Shown here piece by piece: positions 1 to 11,207 of a stretch of DNA of 11,868 nt (position 1 is its first letter; each line of letters begins with the position of its first letter). Both the position numbers and the translations under genes were made by a program. This stretch comes from a virus (taxonomy: Duplodnaviria > Heunggongvirae > Uroviricota > Caudoviricetes). The stretch lies in IMG/VR virus record IMGVR_UViG_3300028956_000026, positions 1 through 11,868 of that record; one strand, written 5' to 3'. Below the pieces are notes generated by a model. That model did no database searches and was not told where the DNA came from. It saw only the letters and a list, made by a program, of their open reading frames with translations.

Positions 1-204
1 GTAATGGGCGATGGTCGTAAGTATGACTGGGTTGTTTCTCTGCGTGCTGTCGAAACCATCGACTTTATGACCGCACACTGGGCGCATCTGCCGTACGATT
101 TCCTCGGTCGCGTTTCCAACCGCATTATCAATGAAGTGAACGGTATTTCCCGCGTGGTGTATGACATCAGCGGCAAGCCACCAGCTACCATTGAGTGGGA
201 ATGA
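1..204 (+). CDS. guaA: 3' end of GMP synthase (glutamine-hydrolysing); 5' end lies outside the window
   Basis: The frame is open from base 1 and ends ...[21 protein letters not shown], stop TGA at 202-204. This matches my recollection of the conserved GuaA C-terminus; not checked by search. Confidence 0.75.
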
Positions 205-249
205 TTAACAGCTAACTCATAGCAAGTCATTCCTATTCAGATACTAACT

Positions 250-338: not shown

Positions 339-355
339 ATTACCTTAAAGGTATA
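339..355. promoter_or_regulatory. Operator-like 17-bp dyad ATTACCttaaaGGTATA upstream of int
   Basis: Member of the recurrent ATTACC-N5-GGTAAT family. Overlaps a -10-like TATACT (352-357) and a second dyad GGTATactctcATACC (351-366). Confidence 0.4.
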
Positions 356-396: not shown

Positions 397-1647
397 GTGC
401 TTACCGATACAAAATTAAAAAACCTCAAGCCGCAGGACAAACTGTACAAGGTCTCCGATCGTGACGGGCTGTATGTAGCTGTGCTTACGTCAGGCACGGT
501 CTCGTTTCGCTACGACTACCGTATCAACGGTCGCCGCGAAACGCTGGTAATCGGGCAGTATGGGCGTGACGGTATCAGCCTGGCAGAAGCGCGAGAAGAA
601 CTGATTGCTGCAAAGAAGCTGCTTAAAGCAGGCCAGTCACCGGCTGCGGCTAAACGTGACGGTATCAAAAAGATTCGTGGTGCCGAGACGTTTGCGGTAC
701 ATACCGACAGTTATATGAAACACGTCATCCTGGCTGACAGTACCCGCGCAATGAAACAGGCGGTGATCGACCGTGACATACTTCCGGTTCTTGGCAATAA
801 AATGATGGCTGAAATTACCACATCGATGGTTCGTGATTTGTGTGACCGGATTGTCGAACGCGGTGGCCGGGCAACAGCAGTGCAGGCCAGGGAGATCATC
901 AGTAGCGTATACCGTCACGCCAATGACCGTGGTCATGGTTTGTTTAATCCTGCGGCTGACATTAAACCTTCGTCTATCGCCATATTTAAACCACGAGAGC
1001 GAACACTGACACCAGAAGAAATTGGCCTGTTCTTCCGCACGCTGGATGCCATTGGTGCTATGGGCACTATGAAAATGGCTTTAAAACTGGTGCTTATCAC
1101 TATGGTTCGTAAGGGCGAATTCACCAATGCAACGTGGGATGAAATAGATTTTAAAAAATGGACATGGACAATTCCTTCAGACCGCATGAAAGGAAGCCGG
1201 GCGCACGTTATTTACCTGCCTAAACAGGCACAGGATATATTGGTCGGGTTGCAGATGTGCGCTGGTGGAAGTGAATACCTGGTTCCTGGTCGTTACAATT
1301 TCCGGAAGCCATTATCTAATGCCGCACTGAACTCTCTGATCGACAGAACGGTGAAAATAATAAATGAAGATGGTGAGCATATTCAGGACTTCACCGTACA
1401 CGATATGCGCCGTACAGCCAGTACGTTGTTGCATGAGGCTGGTTATCCTTCAGACTGGATTGAAAAGGCTCTGGCACATGAGCAGAAAGGTGTGCGCGCC
1501 GTATATAACAAAGCGGAATACGCCAGACAGCGCGCCTACATGTTGCAGCAGTGGGCCGATATGATTGATTCTTGGATTGACGGGGAGCATACGGATCTGA
1601 TTCCGTTCTCCCCGTCGAAGTTTGAGAAGTGGATGGCGGGGGAATAA
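397..1647 (+). CDS. int: Site-specific tyrosine integrase, P4/CP4-57 type
   Basis: 416 aa, GTG start. N-terminus LTDTKLKNLKPQDKLYKVSDRDGLYVAV is typical of the P4-integrase N-terminal domain. C-terminal catalytic signature VHDMRRTASTLL ... LAHEQKGVRAVYNKAEY (HxxR and catalytic Tyr). Confidence 0.9.
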   Translation: MLTDTKLKNLKPQDKLYKVSDRDGLYVAVLTSGTVSFRYDYRINGRRETLVIGQYGRDGISLAEAREELIAAKKLLKAGQSPAAAKRDGIKKIRGAETFAVHTDSYMKHVILADSTRAMKQAVIDRDILPVLGNKMMAEITTSMVRDLCDRIVERGGRATAVQAREIISSVYRHANDRGHGLFNPAADIKPSSIAIFKPRERTLTPEEIGLFFRTLDAIGAMGTMKMALKLVLITMVRKGEFTNATWDEIDFKKWTWTIPSDRMKGSRAHVIYLPKQAQDILVGLQMCAGGSEYLVPGRYNFRKPLSNAALNSLIDRTVKIINEDGEHIQDFTVHDMRRTASTLLHEAGYPSDWIEKALAHEQKGVRAVYNKAEYARQRAYMLQQWADMIDSWIDGEHTDLIPFSPSKFEKWMAGE

Positions 1648-3191: not shown

Positions 3192-4133
3192 TTACATAGA
3201 TGTTTCGTTTAATTCTTCCCGACGAACGCTGTAAACGTCGGTGGCTTTTGCCAGCAGTTCGTCATCATCTGAAAGTTTTTGTGCAATGTATTTGTAAGCC
3301 TTATCCAGTTCGGAGACAGTGCTGTAATTCATCGCTGCGCTGGTAAAGGCCATCAGCATTTCTTCTGGATCACGGCTATCCGCTTTACGCGTTTGCTCAT
3401 CAGGCTTTTTCGCTGGTTTAGCGTTGATCAGACTGTTCATTCCCGCAGCAGTGGTCGTTTGCGGAGTAATGTCTCGCTCAACGCGCGGTGCCGTTTCCTG
3501 TAATTCGTCTGGGGTGTAGACGCCCATGATTACGTCAGGACAGTGCAGGCGAGACCAGCGTTTTGTCGCAAGGTATGCGAGTTGTTGTTTCGGATCACTG
3601 GCCCAAAGTGTGGAGTTTCTTACCTGTGCTTGAGACAGCATTAACTCAAGCACTCGAGGTTGATCCTCGCCCTTCATGGTTGCCCATACGCGAACACCGC
3701 AGCCTTCTTCGTCTTTTAGAGTCCAGCCTGGTGCGATATATGGATTGCCGTTTTTGGATGTTTTCTCAACAAACTTACCGATCACGCGTTCCCACGGCCC
3801 GAACCACTCGTAGTTGATGCGATCTTTTGTTGGCGACATCGTTGAGATAACTGCGTTTACTAATTGGGCTTCATAACCTAGCGTGCCGTTCACAACATGG
3901 GTTTTCTGAGCCACGGCAAACGGGTTCATTCCCCACTGCGCAGCCTGCATTGCCACGGCCATGCAATCAGCTGGTTTCCCGGCGAGGTGCGCCGGTACCG
4001 TTACGCGGCTTTGCGCCATTACCTCGGCGAATTTCATCAGTTGGTTCAAGCCGTCTGGGCTGAAAATAGTTGCAGCAGTTCCAGCGATTGCTGTGTCTAC
4101 TGGTGCGTTGATGTTTGCGATGTCGTTGCTCAT
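3192..4133 (-). CDS. ssDNA annealing recombinase, Bet (Red-beta)/RecT family
   Basis: Blocks AQWGMNPFAVAQKTHVV and QLAYLATKRWSRL...ERDITP parallel lambda Bet (ANQYGLNPW..., ...ERDITP). Start placed at ATG 4133, which overlaps the exonuclease stop as ATGA and has an AGGA Shine-Dalgarno; the track start at 4160 is GTG without a Shine-Dalgarno. Confidence 0.8.
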   Translation of the reverse strand: MSNDIANINAPVDTAIAGTAATIFSPDGLNQLMKFAEVMAQSRVTVPAHLAGKPADCMAVAMQAAQWGMNPFAVAQKTHVVNGTLGYEAQLVNAVISTMSPTKDRINYEWFGPWERVIGKFVEKTSKNGNPYIAPGWTLKDEEGCGVRVWATMKGEDQPRVLELMLSQAQVRNSTLWASDPKQQLAYLATKRWSRLHCPDVIMGVYTPDELQETAPRVERDITPQTTTAAGMNSLINAKPAKKPDEQTRKADSRDPEEMLMAFTSAAMNYSTVSELDKAYKYIAQKLSDDDELLAKATDVYSVRREELNETSM

Positions 4134-4951
4134 ATGTACATATCCTGTTTGCGTGCCCACTCAGGGCGTTTAATGATTTCCACACCGCCCCATTCATCAT
4201 TGATGCGGCATTCGTGATAGGTATTCAGATCCCGGCGGAACAGAGCGTGCCCGGCATCGACATCCTGCGCATCCAGCTCGAACACGCGTACCGGATACCG
4301 ACCACAATCAATGCTTTCGCTCACGGCAAGAAAGAAAAAACCATGCGGCTGACCAGTAACCCTCATTGCGCCTTCGCGGTACATTGCGTCCTGCACGTGG
4401 TAGCGGAATTCCTCGATGTGGCGTGCAAAACGGTCCATATCTGCAACCTTTTTCACGTCGACGATCACGTTGTGCTCGTTCAGCCATTTGTCTGGACGAA
4501 TTCGGCACAACTCCCCCGTCTCTTCATCGTTCCAGTACATTGATGCTTCGCAGTAACCAGGGGCTTCCAGCATCCAGCGTGCCGCCGGGTGAGCCATTGC
4601 GCTATCACGCATCAGCTCCAGTTTCCGCCACTGCTCGGCATCAAGTACCGTAATCCCCATATCCGCCACATCACGAAGAAATGCCTCTTCGTCAGCTTTA
4701 CCTTGTTTCGTCCGACGATCGAATTTCGGTGAAACAATGAAGCGTTTGTCGAACTCTCCAGGCTCCAGAAGCAGACAGTGCAATGCGGTTCCCATATCCA
4801 GTGCAGACTTTTTCTCTTCGTCTTCTGGTGCTGCCTGAACCCATTTAAGAAGCGCCGGATTCTTGGCAACCATGTCCAGTTGCGACTTACTCACGCCGTC
4901 ACCGGCGTGGTAGTCCTCATTGCTGATGTCGAAATAAATTCCCGGTTTCAT
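4130..4951 (-). CDS. RecE-like 5'-3' exonuclease (exodeoxyribonuclease VIII-like, PD-(D/E)XK)
   Basis: 273 aa. N-terminus MKPGIYFDISNEDYHAGDGVSKSQL resembles the RecE C-terminal nuclease domain family. Sits immediately upstream of the annealing protein (exo then annealase order, as in RecET modules). Confidence 0.7.
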   Translation of the reverse strand: MKPGIYFDISNEDYHAGDGVSKSQLDMVAKNPALLKWVQAAPEDEEKKSALDMGTALHCLLLEPGEFDKRFIVSPKFDRRTKQGKADEEAFLRDVADMGITVLDAEQWRKLELMRDSAMAHPAARWMLEAPGYCEASMYWNDEETGELCRIRPDKWLNEHNVIVDVKKVADMDRFARHIEEFRYHVQDAMYREGAMRVTGQPHGFFFLAVSESIDCGRYPVRVFELDAQDVDAGHALFRRDLNTYHECRINDEWGGVEIIKRPEWARKQDMYI

Positions 4952-5254: not shown

Positions 5255-6289
5255 TCAATATTTGATATACGCGTCCTGCACTTTGCCGCCAGCGATAGCC
5301 AACATTGCTTTCTGCGCGAATTCTTCGTGAATGCCTTGGGCTATCAGATCTGCGATTACTCTGCGGTTAACGGTACGGCGATGCTCTTTATCTGCAGCTC
5401 GGCGCGCTTCTTCGTCGGCGATACGCTTCTGTTCGTCAAGGCGGGCTTTTTCTGCCGCCTCTTGGCGTCGGCGTTCCTCGGCAACGGCTTCTTCTTTTTC
5501 GCGTCGTGCACGCTGCTCTGCTTCAATTCGCTGACGTTCTGCTACTTCAGCACGTGCTTTTTCTTCCGCCGCCAGGCGTGCCGCAGCCTCAATTTCAGCT
5601 TTCGCTTTTTGTTCAGCTTCGAGCCTGGCCTGTTCAGCAGCTTCCCGTCGGATATTCTCTTCTCGCTCAATGCGCGCTTTTTCCTCCGCTTCTTTGCGAA
5701 GTCGCTCCAGCTCAGCGGCTTCATGCTCGCGTTTTTGAGCTACTGCGAGTGATTCTTCCAGTTTCTGGATGGTTGAATCCTTGGCTACTCCAGCTTCTGC
5801 TGCGTACTCCTGCCAACTTTCATCAAGTGCTACTGATTTAGCCTCTTGAATTCGTTCCTGAATATCAGATGATGGCAAGTAGTTTCCGGAGAGATCGATC
5901 ACGTCAGCTAGTGCTCGCAAATTTGTCAGGCGTTGTTGCAGTGCTTCAGTGCGTAATTTCTCAGCATTTTCCCACTCGGTGAGTGGGCGGCGTACTTCAT
6001 CACGAAGCCGATCGCATTCGGTTACGAAGCGTCGTAACTCTGCTTCAACTACTTTCGGCTGTTCTTTCAGGCGTTTCAGATAATCACGTCCTGGTTTTTC
6101 TACCGCTGTTTTACTTCTTGAAACCTTCGCAGCCAGAGATGCAATGCGCTTTCTGCCTTTGTCTGTGCTAATGTCAGGCACTTCATTAACACCTTCACGG
6201 ATCTGCTCGAGAAACTTTTCCAGCCCTTTTTCAACGTAAATTCTTGGTGCCATGTCTGGTGTGATTTCGATGATTGATAATTCACTCAT
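5255..6289 (-). CDS. Phage coiled-coil protein with a TolA-like low-complexity E/A/K/R-rich central region
   Basis: 344 aa. Globular N-terminal part (MSELSIIEITPDMAPRIYVEKGLEKFLEQIREG...) followed by about 120 aa of EAEQKAKAEIEAAARLAAEEKARAEV-type repeats. Several antisense shadow ORFs on + are artefacts of this repeat. Confidence 0.7.
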   Translation of the reverse strand: MSELSIIEITPDMAPRIYVEKGLEKFLEQIREGVNEVPDISTDKGRKRIASLAAKVSRSKTAVEKPGRDYLKRLKEQPKVVEAELRRFVTECDRLRDEVRRPLTEWENAEKLRTEALQQRLTNLRALADVIDLSGNYLPSSDIQERIQEAKSVALDESWQEYAAEAGVAKDSTIQKLEESLAVAQKREHEAAELERLRKEAEEKARIEREENIRREAAEQARLEAEQKAKAEIEAAARLAAEEKARAEVAERQRIEAEQRARREKEEAVAEERRRQEAAEKARLDEQKRIADEEARRAADKEHRRTVNRRVIADLIAQGIHEEFAQKAMLAIAGGKVQDAYIKY

Positions 6290-6465: not shown

Positions 6466-6482
6466 GTTACCGTTGAGGTAAT
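6466..6482. promoter_or_regulatory. Operator-like dyad GTTACCgttgaGGTAAT (oL-proximal)
   Basis: 17-bp dyad overlapping the -10/start region of the predicted leftward promoter. An extra TTACC half-site lies at 6454-6458. Confidence 0.45.
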
Positions 6483-6509
6483 AATTATGCTTATTTGGTT
6501 TGGTGTCAA
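6481..6509 (-). promoter_or_regulatory. pL-like sigma-70 promoter (leftward early operon)
   Basis: On the minus strand a perfect -35 TTGACA (plus 6504-6509), 17-bp spacer, -10 AATTAT. Lies between the repressor terminator and the first leftward ORF and is flanked by two operator dyads. Confidence 0.45.
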
Positions 6510-6527: not shown

Positions 6528-6544
6528 ATTACCCGTAAGGTAAT
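6528..6544. promoter_or_regulatory. Operator-like perfect dyad ATTACCcgtaaGGTAAT (oL-distal)
   Basis: Perfect 6+5+6 palindrome about 19 bp upstream of the -35 of the pL-like promoter. Confidence 0.45.
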
Positions 6545-6552
6545 CTATCTGG

Positions 6553-6580
6553 CAATAAAAAAGCCGCCATGAGGCGGCTT
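6553..6580 (-). terminator. Rho-independent terminator after the repressor gene (tImm-like)
   Basis: 8-bp stem AAGCCGCC (6561-6568) / GGCGGCTT (6573-6580), loop ATGA. On the minus strand it is followed by TTTTATT. Lies 20 bp downstream of the repressor stop. Confidence 0.6.
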
Positions 6581-6600: not shown

Positions 6601-7185
6601 TTATTGTTTGCTTTTTTCGTTCTGGTTGATGACAAATTCAATGTAACTTTCGATCTTTGCTTTCTCTGTTTCAGGTAACAATGCGTAGCGCGAGCGGTCA
6701 TAGTTGATAGTTGCAGGGTCGTGCGGGTGAATCAGTAGTTCATATCCGTGACGCCCGAATGCAGATGCAACATTCTCCAGGGTGGAAATGGAAACGCTGA
6801 CCTCATTGTTTAACAGGCGGCTGATTGTCACCTGGGCTACGCCGGATGCGCGGTGAAGTTTTCCCTGTGTTGAAAGGTCGCGGCTTTCGCTCATCCAGCG
6901 TTCCAGGTTGTGAGCCGCCAGCTGGCCAATGTCGCTTGGGCCGACAGGCTGAAAACCTTCCTGAGAAAGCGAGCGATCGATATCAAGCCAGTTACGGGGT
7001 TTATTGGCGGCAGCTTCAATTTTTCGCGCAACCTGATCGCCGATAACCTTCTTACCAAGAGCCCAGCGGTTTACCAGATTTGCCTGAGTTCCAAGTTTTT
7101 CGGCCATCCGCGTCTGAACACCATTGAATTCACGGTCGATCAAGTCGTTGAGATTTTGCCTGCGGACGTCCTGGATACTTTTCAT
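6601..7185 (-). CDS. CI-like prophage repressor with two HTH domains and no LexA-type S24 peptidase domain
   Basis: 194 aa. N-terminal HTH (QTRMAEKLGTQANLVNRWALGKK) and a second HTH-like segment (GVAQVTISRLLNNEVSVSISTLENVASAFG). No Ser/Lys autocleavage motif. Divergent from the Cro-like gene, no Shine-Dalgarno before the ATG (pRM-style). Operators flank it. Confidence 0.7.
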   Translation of the reverse strand: MKSIQDVRRQNLNDLIDREFNGVQTRMAEKLGTQANLVNRWALGKKVIGDQVARKIEAAANKPRNWLDIDRSLSQEGFQPVGPSDIGQLAAHNLERWMSESRDLSTQGKLHRASGVAQVTISRLLNNEVSVSISTLENVASAFGRHGYELLIHPHDPATINYDRSRYALLPETEKAKIESYIEFVINQNEKSKQ

Positions 7186-7239: not shown

Positions 7240-7256
7240 ATTACCCAACAGGTAAA
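7240..7256. promoter_or_regulatory. Operator-like dyad ATTACCcaacaGGTAAA (oR region)
   Basis: In the divergent intergenic region between repressor and cro-like genes. Its reverse complement TTTACCtgttgGGTAAT is nearly identical to the copy at 9571-9587. Confidence 0.45.
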
Positions 7257-7285
7257 TGCACCTCATGGGTAACTATCCTTGATTT

Positions 7286-7314
7286 TTGTTACCTTATAGG
7301 TGAATATTTATTAT
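7286..7314 (+). promoter_or_regulatory. pR-like sigma-70 promoter with overlapping operator dyad GTTACCttataGGTGAA (7288-7304)
   Basis: -35 TTGTTA (7286-7291), 17-bp spacer, -10 TATTAT (7309-7314), 25 bp upstream of the cro-like ATG. The dyad overlaps the -35 and spacer. Confidence 0.5.
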
Positions 7315-7339: not shown

Positions 7340-7570
7340 ATGAGCGATAACGGACATTTCGATTTCAAAAAGCACTGGCTTGCACTTACTCCGGATGAGC
7401 GTGAAGCCTTCGCACAGGAAGCCGGAACGACGAGTCACTATATCCAGACTCACTTAACAGGTAAGCGCAAAATGCCAGGTAAGGTATTGATGGATGGGCT
7501 TTTTAAAGCCTGTAAATCAAGACAATGGCTGCGCTCAAAAGCAGAACTGGCATACTTCTTCTACTCATGA
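7340..7570 (+). CDS. Cro-like small HTH regulator
   Basis: 76 aa, divergent from the repressor and first gene of the rightward operon. Putative HTH around LTPDEREAFAQEAGTTSHYIQTHL. Confidence 0.65.
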   Translation: MSDNGHFDFKKHWLALTPDEREAFAQEAGTTSHYIQTHLTGKRKMPGKVLMDGLFKACKSRQWLRSKAELAYFFYS

Positions 7571-7592
7571 TATCCAGCCACAACCCTCTGTA

Positions 7593-7614
7593 GACCGCCA
7601 TCCGGCGGTCTTTT
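7593..7614 (+). terminator. Rho-independent terminator downstream of the cro-like gene (tR1-like)
   Basis: Stem GACCGCC (7593-7599) / GGCGGTC (7604-7610), loop ATCC, followed by TTTT. Confidence 0.6.
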
Positions 7615-7624
7615 CATATCTATT

Positions 7625-7641
7625 CGTACCTCAAAGGTAAT
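7625..7641. promoter_or_regulatory. Operator-like dyad CGTACCtcaaaGGTAAT
   Basis: Degenerate member of the ATTACC-N5-GGTAAT family, about 80 bp upstream of the zinc-finger ORF. Confidence 0.35.
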
Positions 7642-9633: not shown

Positions 9634-9650
9634 TTACCTTAGAGGTAAAT
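9634..9650. promoter_or_regulatory. Operator-like dyad ATTACCttagaGGTAAA overlapping the RBS of the DUF1064-like gene
   Basis: Ends 1 bp before the ATG at 9652; the GGTAA half doubles as the GAGGT Shine-Dalgarno. Confidence 0.4.
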
Positions 9651-10717: not shown

Positions 10718-11207
10718 GCGAAATTAATTACCAGGCACTGCGTGAGGCGGCGGAACGTGCAATTCCAGCAATGGNNNNNNNNNNNNNNNNNNNNNNNNNN
10801 NNNATGATGATTTGTTAAGTGAACAGGAACTTAAAGATTACGGTGTGGATATTGATGCGCTCAACGCCTTCAAATTTCTGGCCGGACCAGAAACCGTGCT
10901 GGCACTACTGGATGAACGGGAAAGGAACCAGCAATACATCAAATCACGCGACCAGGAGAACGAGGATATTGCGCTAACGGTAGGGAAGTTGCGCGTTGAG
11001 CTTGAGGCAGAAAAACAGCGGGCAAAGGATCTGTTTATGGAAAATGCTCGGCTTAAGTCAGGTATAGCCGGTCTGATACACCTCGGTATTCGATATGCAG
11101 ATGTTGATGTCATGAAAATTGCTGGAGATGCCCAGCTTTCTACCCCATACACTGACAGCATCATAAACAGCATTGCAACAGGCATTCGCATCAACGGAGG
11201 TGAGTAG
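10714..11207 (+). CDS. Ead/Ea22-like family protein (tentative), interrupted by the N-gap
   Basis: GTG 10714 with AAGGAAG Shine-Dalgarno; N-terminus VSEINYQALREAAERAIPAM then Ns. Open frame resumes after the gap (..DDLLSEQELKDYG...GIRINGGE, stop 11205-11207). Frame continuity across the gap cannot be established. Confidence 0.45.
10775..10803. other. Assembly gap (29 N)
   Basis: Run of N characters directly visible in the sequence. Confidence 1.

What the first reader, a model, noticed from the sequence alone, without database searches (positions are those of the whole stretch)
6601..7185. Immunity repressor with tandem HTH domains and no autocleavage domain
The gene occupies the cI position (divergent from cro, followed by a terminator and the pL-like promoter), but the 194-aa product shows two HTH-like segments and no LexA/CI-type S24 peptidase domain or Ala-Gly cleavage site. 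By analogy with Gifsy-type prophages of Salmonella, induction may rely on a trans-acting antirepressor rather than RecA-stimulated self-cleavage. No antirepressor is encoded in this window. The ATG also lacks a Shine-Dalgarno, which would fit a leaderless pRM-type transcript.
Basis: partly seen in the sequence, partly recalled or inferred. Interest (0 to 1): 0.6.

Follow-up and report, generated by a model that had tools for sequence, protein, structure and literature searches.

The report
Non-cleavable prophage repressor, SPC32H Rep type

Summary
It is divergent from a Cro-position ORF and is followed by an intrinsic terminator and a PL-like promoter. It has two HTH-like helical domains, no S24 peptidase domain and no Ala-Gly or Cys-Gly dipeptide.

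It is a full-length homologue (E = 3.5e-42, 42.5% identity) of Rep of Salmonella phage SPC32H (PDB 5D4Z/5D50). That repressor is a tetramer inactivated by the antirepressor Ant. The window is a phiV10-like (Uetakevirus) prophage inserted at the 3' end of guaA. Its Rep is 99.5% identical to phiV10 p40 and to ZX5 ORF21, which has been shown by overexpression to shut down lytic genes.

No antirepressor or LexA box lies in the window. In five complete relatives, an 85-aa Ant homologue (85–88% identical to SPC32H Ant) lies beside the tail-fibre gene, with a 17–18/20 LexA box exactly 37 bp upstream of its ATG.

A palindrome, TTACC-N5-GGTAA, marks the early promoters (8 sites against 0.18 expected). 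It is the likely operator.

The missing Shine-Dalgarno is confirmed, but a leaderless transcript is not supported.

This is a new member of a known kind, of low interest.

The parts
6601..7185 (-). rep: 194-aa lysogeny repressor, an SPC32H Rep homologue; coordinates include the stop codon
   Evidence: ORF. 5D50_A matches at E = 3.5e-42 over the full length. 99.5% identical to phiV10 p40 and 100% to the E. coli prophage L002. ZX5 ORF21, the same protein, represses lytic genes on overexpression.
6970..7185 (-). Rep aa 1-72: N-terminal HTH DNA-binding domain with the conserved NLVNRW helix
   Evidence: Pfam and PHROG HTH hits. 53% identical to the SPC32H NTD. N36, R40 and W41 are invariant in 26 relatives. 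Named the DBD in SPC32H Rep.
6736..6921 (-). Rep aa 89-150: second HTH-like helical bundle, equivalent to the middle dimerisation domain (MDD)
   Evidence: HTH_3 at aa 106-147. AF2 helices at 83-151. Aligns to 5D4Z (Rep 92-198). The MDD is described.
6604..6735 (-). Rep aa 151-194: C-terminal tetramerisation and Ant-binding domain (CAD/TetDloop)
   Evidence: 50% identical to SPC32H. The tetramer-interface residues F187 and F190 of SPC32H align with Y181 (Y or F in the family) and F184 (invariant).
6561..6580 (-). intrinsic terminator after rep
   Evidence: 8-bp stem with 6 GC pairs and a T tail. Annotated at the same place in phiV10.
6481..6509 (-). PL-like promoter for the early-left operon (TTGACA-17-AATTAT)
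   Evidence: 10/12 match. Bracketed by two palindromes 62 bp apart.
6467..6481 (.). operator-like palindrome TTACCGTTGAGGTAA (OL, promoter-proximal)
   Evidence: Touches the last base of the PL -10 hexamer and covers the likely start region.
6529..6543 (.). operator-like palindrome TTACCCGTAAGGTAA (OL, distal)
   Evidence: The 62-bp spacing is conserved in phiV10 and SPC32H.
7241..7255 (.). operator-like palindrome TTACCCAACAGGTAA (OR, rep-proximal)
   Evidence: Overlaps the conserved candidate -35 (TTTACC) of a rep promoter.
7258..7272 (.). degenerate middle operator GCACCTCATGGGTAA (2 mismatches)
   Evidence: Read. It occupies the position of the middle site of SPC32H (17 bp centre to centre).
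7289..7303 (.). operator-like palindrome TTACCTTATAGGTGA (OR, overlapping PR)
   Evidence: Lies between the -35 and -10 of the PR-like promoter.
7286..7314 (+). PR-like promoter (TTGTTA-17-TATTAT) for the Cro-position ORF and early-right genes
7340..7570 (+). Cro-position ORF, 76 aa
   Evidence: PHROG_35 'transcriptional repressor', E = 8.7e-13. 77% identical to SPC32H_042. No Pfam, NCBIfam or PDB match.
7592..7611 (+). intrinsic terminator after the Cro-position ORF
   Evidence: Annotated in phiV10.
7626..7640 (.). operator-like palindrome GTACCTCAAAGGTAA
9572..9586 (.). operator-like palindrome, first of a pair 62 bp apart upstream of the DUF1064 gene
   Evidence: The same pair occurs in phiV10 and SPC32H.
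9634..9648 (.). operator-like palindrome, second of the pair
340..354 (.). operator-like palindrome (1 mismatch) upstream of int
   Evidence: The identical sequence occurs at the same place in phiV10 and SPC32H.

Best explanation
The gene encodes the lysogeny-maintenance repressor (Rep) of a phiV10-like, epsilon15-type podovirus prophage integrated at the 3' end of guaA. Rep is a three-part protein: an N-terminal HTH DNA-binding domain, a second HTH-fold domain used for dimerisation, and a short C-terminal tetramerisation and antirepressor-binding domain.

Inferred steps:
- As a tetramer, Rep binds TTACC-N5-GGTAA palindromes that overlap or bracket PR, PL and further early promoters, and silences them.
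- Rep cannot cleave itself.
- After DNA damage, RecA-stimulated LexA cleavage de-represses a small gene, ant (85 aa). In the prophage it lies about 27 kb away, beside the tail-fibre gene, with a LexA box 37 bp upstream of its ATG.
- Ant binds Rep, breaks the DNA-binding tetramer and releases the lytic promoters.

Shown here: homology, domain architecture, absence of an S24 domain and cleavage site, the operator-like sites, and the presence of ant with a LexA box in complete relatives.

Inferred from the SPC32H work: oligomeric state, Ant binding, and LexA control. Also inferred is that the source prophage of this window itself carries ant.
For: Homology and fold:
- Full-length match to SPC32H Rep, 5D50_A at E = 3.5e-42 and 5D4Z at E = 3.6e-20.
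- The fold search returns only these structures at significant E-values.

No self-cleavage apparatus:
- No S24 in Pfam or in any of 86 relatives.
- No AG or CG dipeptide.

Family features conserved:
- Tetramer-interface aromatics: SPC32H F187/F190 correspond to Y181/F184, and F184 is invariant.

Published mechanism for SPC32H:
- The Rep tetramer binds palindromic sites. An Ant tetramer binds two Rep dimers and breaks the tetramer. Many such Ants are LexA-controlled.

The antirepressor in relatives:
- PhiV10p24 matches SPC32H Ant at E = 2.9e-46 and is 85-88% identical.
- A LexA box (17-18/20 to consensus) lies at -37 of ant in phiV10, SPC32H and three E. coli prophages whose Rep is 193-194/194 identical to the window's.
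- Rep and Ant co-occur in 35 of 36 phage records.
- In E. coli complete genomes, 562 carry the rep region and 529 carry the ant module.

Operators:
- The palindrome occurs 8 times against 0.18 expected, at promoter regions.

Experiment on the same protein:
- Overexpressing the same repressor (ZX5 ORF21) abolished free phage and cut lysin and holin transcripts by more than 99.9%.
Against: - The source genome of this window was not found in the complete E. coli genomes (best 90% coverage at 97.3%). The presence of ant in this very prophage is therefore unverified.
- About 6% more genomes have rep than have the ant module, so some prophages may lack it.
- Rep is only 42.5% identical to the characterised protein, and the middle domain only 34%. 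No Rep-Ant contact residues could be checked because the primary papers are not held.
- The palindrome could be the site of the Cro-position protein, which is far more conserved between the two phages (77%) than Rep is.
- Many relatives carry a second Ant-domain protein under RNA control. LexA-Ant may therefore not be the only induction route.
Confidence: 0.85

Rival explanations
1. Rep is inactivated mainly by a different, SOS-independent antirepressor. The candidate is the Bro-N protein with a C-terminal Ant-like domain, encoded just downstream of ant and preceded by isrK-like and C4 antisense RNAs. That arrangement resembles P1 immI or Gifsy-1 IsrK-AnrP control. On this view the small LexA-controlled Ant is secondary.
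For: - The Bro-N protein's aa 147-223 match SPC32H Ant at E = 1.1e-13 and are 41% identical to the phage's own Ant.
- The C4 (79.5 bits) and isrK (76.8 bits) RNA families lie in its leader.
- Overexpressing the Bro-N ORF4 of ZX5 lowered prophage titre from 1e9 to 1e6.
Against: - The Bro-N gene is absent from two of three sampled E. coli prophages with the same Rep (L002 and L005) and from SPC32H.
- In phiV10 it appears to be frameshifted.
- The small Ant with its LexA box is present in all five genomes.
Confidence: 0.08
2. Rep is a lambda CI/LexA-type repressor after all, with a cryptic self-cleavage activity stimulated by RecA.
For: Only its position in the genome (the cI slot) and its two-domain size. 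No tool result supports cleavage.
Against: - No S24 match at E <= 1, and none in 86 relatives.
- The model is all-helical with no beta-rich domain, and the fold search finds no LexA or CI C-terminal domain.
- No Ala-Gly or Cys-Gly site.
- The homologue's solved structure has the DBD-MDD-TetDloop architecture.
Confidence: 0.02
3. The ORF is an XRE-family regulator of some accessory function, for example an antitoxin like HigA, and not the prophage's immunity repressor.
For: Weak sub-threshold NCBIfam matches to HigA and RstR. One phage record annotates the gene as 'antidote protein VapI'.
Against: - All those matches are far below the curated cut-offs.
- The gene sits in the immunity position with operators at PR and PL.
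- The same protein represses lytic genes when overexpressed.
- Its homologue is the proven SPC32H repressor.
Confidence: 0.02

Closest known systems
Rep (SPC32H_041) / Ant (SPC32H_020) of Salmonella phage SPC32H, PDB 5D4Z and 5D50 (Kim & Ryu 2013; Kim et al. 2016)
   Same: - Same phage genus (Uetakevirus) and the same gene order: rep divergent from the Cro-position ORF, and ant beside the tailspike gene.
- Full-length homology, with the same DBD, HTH-fold middle domain and C-terminal tetramerisation domain, including conserved interface aromatics.
- Ant is 85-88% identical, with a LexA box at the same -37 position.
- The same TTACC-N5-GGTAA palindromes occur with the same 17/30-31-bp and 62-bp spacings.
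   Different: - Rep is only 42.5% identical overall (53% DBD, 34% middle domain, 50% C-terminal domain).
- The central bases of the palindromes differ. SPC32H immunity-region sites mostly read TTACCA...TGGTAA, while here position 6 is C, G or T. The two may be heteroimmune, but this is untested.
- The middle OR site is degenerate here.
- Many E. coli relatives add a second, Bro-N-fused Ant domain that SPC32H lacks.
phiV10 p40 and vB_EcoP_ZX5 ORF21 (E. coli Uetakevirus repressors)
   Same: 99.5% identical protein. phiV10 already annotates it as a 'putative transcriptional repressor, two helix-turn-helix motifs'. ZX5 ORF21 was shown by overexpression to block the lytic cycle. The integration site at the guaA 3' end has the same att core.
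   Different: Essentially nothing at the protein level. Neither record nor the ZX5 paper links the repressor to the 85-aa SPC32H-type Ant or to LexA. That gene is annotated 'hypothetical protein'.
Gifsy-1/-2/-3 repressors GfoR, GtgR and GfhR with LexA-controlled antirepressors (Lemire et al. 2011)
   Same: The same logic applies: a non-cleavable repressor, and a small antirepressor encoded far from the immunity region under direct LexA control.
   Different: Gifsy repressors are about 136 aa, single-domain and lambda CI-NTD-like. tblastn with this Rep returned no record named Gifsy. Gifsy antirepressors sit in a dinI operon and are unrelated to SPC32H-type Ant. This is an analogue, not a homologue.
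Lambda CI / P22 C2 / LexA (S24 self-cleaving repressors)
   Same: The position in the genome, divergent PRM/PR-type layout, a tripartite OR and a downstream PL.
   Different: There is no S24 domain, no Ala-Gly site and no Ser/Lys-dyad domain. The C-terminal part is a helical dimerisation domain plus a p53-like tetramerisation motif.
Coliphage 186 CI/Tum and N15 AntC
   Same: SOS induction works through a LexA-repressed antirepressor rather than through repressor cleavage.
   Different: The repressor and antirepressor proteins are unrelated. No homology was detected in any search here.

Membership tests
SPC32H Rep-type repressors | Full-length sequence homology to Rep (PDB 5D50 chain A / 5D4Z) | tested here: met
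   phmmer E = 3.5e-42 over aa 1-190, and E = 3.6e-20 to the 92-198 fragment. 42.5% global identity.
SPC32H Rep-type repressors | Architecture: N-terminal HTH DBD, then a middle dimerisation domain with an HTH fold, then a C-terminal tetramerisation and Ant-binding domain | tested here: met
   The AF2 model has helical bundles at 4-59 and 83-151 and a C-terminal helix at 172-193. The top Foldseek hits are 5D50 and 5D4Z. The beta-strand of the tetramerisation motif is not formed in the monomer model, where pLDDT is below 50 at aa 157-166.
SPC32H Rep-type repressors | Hydrophobic tetramer interface (Phe187 and Phe190 in SPC32H Rep) | tested here: met
   These residues align with Y181 (Y or F in 26/26 relatives) and F184 (invariant).
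SPC32H Rep-type repressors | A cognate SPC32H-type Ant encoded in the same phage | tested here: inconclusive
   Not in the window. Present in 35 of 36 phage records with a Rep homologue and in 3 of 3 sampled E. coli prophages with a 193-194/194 identical Rep. The window's own genome could not be identified.
SPC32H Rep-type repressors | ant under LexA control | tested here: met
   For relatives only: a 17-18/20 LexA box lies at -37 of ant in five genomes, and it is the only strong box in each. LexA binding itself was not tested.
SPC32H Rep-type repressors | Tetramer binds palindromic operators; Ant disassembles the tetramer | not testable with these tools
   Candidate operators were found. Oligomeric state and Ant binding need biochemistry.
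LexA/CI S24 self-cleaving repressors | Peptidase S24 C-terminal domain with a Ser/Lys dyad | tested here: not met
   No PF00717 hit at E <= 1. None in 86 relatives. No such fold in the fold search.
LexA/CI S24 self-cleaving repressors | Ala-Gly (or Cys-Gly) cleavage site in the inter-domain linker | tested here: not met
   The protein has no AG or CG dipeptide anywhere.
Gifsy GfoR/GtgR-type small repressors | About 136-150 aa, a single domain homologous to the lambda CI N-terminal domain over nearly the whole length | tested here: not met
   This protein is 194 aa with three domains. tblastn returned no record named Gifsy.
Leaderless PRM-type repressor mRNAs (as in lambda cI) | A -10 hexamer ending about 5-8 nt upstream of the start codon, so that transcription starts at the AUG | tested here: inconclusive
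   No promoter-like pair scoring 7/12 or better has that geometry. Pairs conserved with SPC32H end 41 nt or 19 nt before the ATG. The transcription start was not mapped.

The most novel reading that the evidence does not exclude
In E. coli phiV10-like prophages, one non-cleavable Rep may integrate two separate induction inputs. The first is the small LexA-controlled Ant. The second is a Bro-N::Ant fusion protein whose expression is gated by isrK-like and C4 antisense RNAs. Because Ant is 85-88% conserved while Rep has diverged to 43%, the Ant of one Uetakevirus might also cross-induce Uetakevirus prophages that carry the divergent Rep type. A further possibility is that Rep, through the palindrome at -91 of ant, feeds back on its own antirepressor.
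Probability: 0.3. Interest if true: 0.4.

Novelty: new member of a known kind. Interest (0 to 1): 0.2.

Why it matters
phiV10-like prophages occur in about one in ten complete E. coli genomes (562 of 5426), including O157:H7 strains and clinical isolates. Knowing that their induction runs through a LexA-controlled antirepressor, and not through repressor cleavage, predicts how SOS-inducing antibiotics mobilise them. It also predicts which mutations (ant, the LexA box) would lock them in.

There is a practical annotation gain too. In almost every record, the 85-aa gene beside the tail-fibre gene is labelled 'hypothetical protein'. The one experimental paper on this repressor tested a different, Bro-N protein as the 'anti-repressor'.

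Mechanistically, though, the system adds nothing to what the SPC32H structures already established.

Tried and rejected
- **Primary SPC32H and epsilon15 papers.** I tried to read them by DOI and by PMC id, and they are not held. Published operator sequences and Rep-Ant contact residues could therefore not be compared. Mechanistic statements rest on secondary descriptions.
- **PhiV10p23 as the Ant homologue.** I first tested the annotated phiV10 'anti-immunity' Bro-N protein and found only a weak local hit (E = 0.34). The true homologue is the neighbouring 85-aa PhiV10p24.
- **Identifying the window's source genome.** I searched the whole window against complete E. coli genomes. The best match covers 90% at 97.3%, so ant could not be checked in the same prophage. 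I did not use the genome-contig scan, because its flanks (up to 10 kb) cannot reach ant about 22 kb beyond the window's right end.
- **Leaderless transcript.** I scanned for sigma-70-like pairs upstream of the ATG in this phage and in SPC32H, and none has leaderless geometry. I rejected the idea as unsupported, not as disproved.
- **Gifsy homology.** tblastn against the phage collection returned no record named Gifsy.
- **Cro-position ORF.** No Pfam, NCBIfam or PDB match, only PHROG_35. Its identity as Cro therefore rests on position.
- **Rfam scan of the window.** No known RNA family was found in the window.

Full report
**Observation**

Two HTH-like segments are present. Pfam gives HTH_3 with two stretches, the best at aa 106-147 (E = 1.2e-9), and a YdaS-type HTH match at aa 21-61. 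PHROG repressor families cover aa 1-76 and aa 98-192.

No S24 peptidase match appears even at E <= 1. A search of 5.8 billion proteins found 86 relatives, nearly all about 194 aa, and none has a precomputed S24 domain. The protein has no Ala-Gly or Cys-Gly dipeptide.

An AlphaFold2 model built from 26 relatives (mean pLDDT 76.5) is all-helical. It has bundles at aa 4-59 and 83-151 and a long C-terminal helix at 172-193.

The context is as stated:
- A divergent 76-aa ORF lies at 7340..7570 (PHROG_35 'transcriptional repressor').
- An intrinsic terminator follows rep at 6580..6561 on the minus strand.
- A TTGACA-17-AATTAT promoter-like site lies at 6509..6481 and reads into the early-left genes.

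**What it is**

The protein matches over its full length the 'Repressor' chains of PDB 5D50 (E = 3.5e-42) and 5D4Z (E = 3.6e-20). A Foldseek search of the model against the PDB returns only those entries at significant E-values, followed by generic XRE-type HTH domains.

These entries are Rep of Salmonella phage SPC32H, alone and in complex with its antirepressor Ant. Secondary literature describes them as follows:
- Rep binds palindromic DNA as a tetramer.
- Tetrameric Ant binds two Rep dimers and breaks the tetramer.
- Rep consists of an N-terminal DBD, a middle dimerisation domain, and a C-terminal p53-like tetramerisation domain. That last domain also binds Ant, and Phe187 and Phe190 form the tetramer interface.

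Those two residues align with Y181 (Y or F in all 26 relatives) and F184 (invariant).

Global identity to SPC32H Rep is 42.5%. By region it is 53% in the DBD, 25% in the linker, 34% in the middle domain and 50% in the C-terminal domain.

**Source**

The window is the left third of a phiV10-like (Uetakevirus, epsilon15-type) prophage.
- The end of guaA and the published att core ATTGAGTGGGAATGATT lie at 190-206.
- The integrase is at 397..1647.
- The rep region is 97% identical to phage phiV10 and relatives and occurs in 562 of 5426 complete E. coli genomes.
- Rep is 99.5% identical to phiV10 p40, which is already annotated 'putative transcriptional repressor, two helix-turn-helix motifs'.
- It is also 99.5% identical to ORF21 of phage vB_EcoP_ZX5. 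Overexpressing ORF21 abolished free phage and reduced endolysin and holin transcripts by more than 99.9%.

**The antirepressor**

The window contains none. No ORF matches an antirepressor family, tblastn with Ant finds nothing, and no LexA-like site reaches 14/20.

In phiV10, the 85-aa 'hypothetical' PhiV10p24 matches SPC32H Ant at E = 2.9e-46 and is 85% identical.

I checked five complete genomes: phiV10, SPC32H, and three E. coli prophages whose Rep is 193-194/194 identical to the window's. In all five:
- ant lies divergent from the tail-fibre or tailspike gene.
- A LexA box matching 17-18 of 20 consensus positions starts exactly 37 bp upstream of its ATG.
- That box is the only strong LexA site in the element.

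Full-length Rep homologues and Ant homologues co-occur in 35 of 36 phage records. The ant module is in 529 E. coli genomes, against 562 for rep.

The genome this window came from is not among the complete E. coli genomes. Ant in this very prophage is therefore inferred, not shown.

**Operators**

The palindrome TTACC-N5-GGTAA, allowing one mismatch, occurs 8 times in the window against 0.18 expected.
- Two copies 62 bp apart bracket the PL-like promoter (6467, 6529).
- Two lie in the rep-cro intergenic region (7241, and 7289 overlapping the PR-like promoter). A degenerate third copy at 7258 gives centre-to-centre spacings of 17 and 31 bp.
- One follows the cro terminator (7626).
- Two copies 62 bp apart precede the DUF1064 gene (9572, 9634).
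- One lies upstream of int (340).

SPC32H has the same motif at the equivalent places, with the same spacings of 17/30 and 62 bp. In both phages a copy lies 91 bp upstream of ant.

The presumed recognition helix NLVNRW is nearly invariant across the family. That fits conserved half-sites. In the SPC32H tetramer the paired middle domains are separated by about 100 Å, which fits one tetramer bridging two sites.

The assignment to Rep remains an inference. The Cro-position protein is 77% identical between the two phages and could share or own these sites.

**Translation start**

The only Shine-Dalgarno-like element is GAGG, 14 nt upstream of the ATG. SPC32H also lacks one.

A leaderless mRNA is not supported. 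No promoter-like pair has its -10 ending 5-8 nt before the ATG. The two arrangements conserved between the phages are TTTACC-18-TAAATT and TTTAAA-18-CATATA (AATAAA in SPC32H). They imply leaders of about 35 or about 12 nt. Only transcript mapping can decide.

**Comparison with the known**

It is wrong about kinship. Gifsy repressors are about 136 aa and single-domain, and tblastn returned no record named Gifsy.

The system is a member of the SPC32H Rep/Ant family within the same phage genus. The S24 family is excluded on both defining features tested.

**Side observation**

In many E. coli relatives, ant is followed by three elements:
- An isrK-like sRNA (76.8 bits).
- A C4 antisense RNA (79.5 bits).
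- A Bro-N protein whose C-terminal 80 aa form a second Ant-like domain (E = 1.1e-13 to 5D50 chain E, and 41% identical to the phage's own Ant).

This Bro-N protein is the one the ZX5 paper tested as the 'anti-repressor'. It is absent from SPC32H and from two of the three sampled prophages. In phiV10 it appears to be frameshifted.

**Verdict**

The mechanism was published for the SPC32H homologue in 2013-2016, and the same protein is already annotated and partly tested in E. coli phages. This is a new member of a known kind, and its interest is low (0.2).

Noticed in passing
L004 (E. coli MINF_2E, NZ_LR890651.1) 34694..35950, minus strand; outside the window: Downstream of the LexA-controlled ant lie an isrK-like sRNA (35610..35534, 76.8 bits) and a C4 antisense RNA (35515..35429, 79.5 bits). 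After them comes a 228-aa Bro-N protein whose aa 147-223 are a second Ant-like domain (E = 1.1e-13 to 5D50_E). This resembles P1 immI or Gifsy-1 IsrK-AnrP control of an antirepressor.
   Followed up: partly
L001 (phiV10) 19551..20230, minus strand: By eye, phiV10 p23 (Bro-N 'anti-immunity protein') and the tiny p22 look like one Bro-N::Ant fusion gene split by a frameshift. p23 ends with the first third of the Ant-like domain, and p22 carries its last third (compared).
   Followed up: partly
L001 20543..20800; L002 10686..10943; L004 35693..35950; L005 33102..33359: The 85-aa SPC32H-type ant gene is annotated 'hypothetical protein' in nearly all E. coli phage and RefSeq records. The ZX5 paper on this repressor does not mention it, SPC32H or LexA.
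   Followed up: yes
window 340, 6467, 6529, 7241, 7289, 7626, 9572, 9634; L001 87, 3252, 20497, 20877, 24692 and others: TTACC-N5-GGTAA palindromes mark almost every intergenic promoter region of the phage. These include sites upstream of terS, the portal operon, the lysis genes and int, and a site at -91 of ant. This suggests one regulator silences every transcription unit and may also touch ant.
   Followed up: partly
window 7340..7570 (+): The Cro-position ORF is 77% identical between this phage and SPC32H, and Ant is 85-88% identical, while Rep is only 42.5% identical. The repressor has diverged much more than its partners.
   Followed up: no
window 5255..6289 (-): A 344-aa coiled-coil ORF (PHROG_1376, function unknown) sits between the p38-like and p39-like genes, just downstream of PL. 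It is present in prophages L004 and L005 but absent from phiV10 and L002.
   Followed up: no
window 3192..4951 (-): The recombination genes are a separate RecT (3192..4160) and a PD-(D/E)XK/YqaJ-type exonuclease (4130..4951). phiV10 instead annotates a single fused recET gene.
   Followed up: no
window 4..206: The 3' end of guaA, with the published att core ATTGAGTGGGAATGATT at 190-206. The window therefore starts at the prophage's attL junction.
   Followed up: yes
window 10775..10803: A run of 29 N (masked or unresolved bases) interrupts an ORF in the early-right region.
   Followed up: no
PP488543.1 (Escherichia phage BP9, 138 kb): This is the only phage record with a full-length Rep homologue but no Ant hit. 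There the gene is annotated 'plasmid maintenance system antidote protein VapI'. The record is far larger than a Uetakevirus genome and may be a composite.
   Followed up: no
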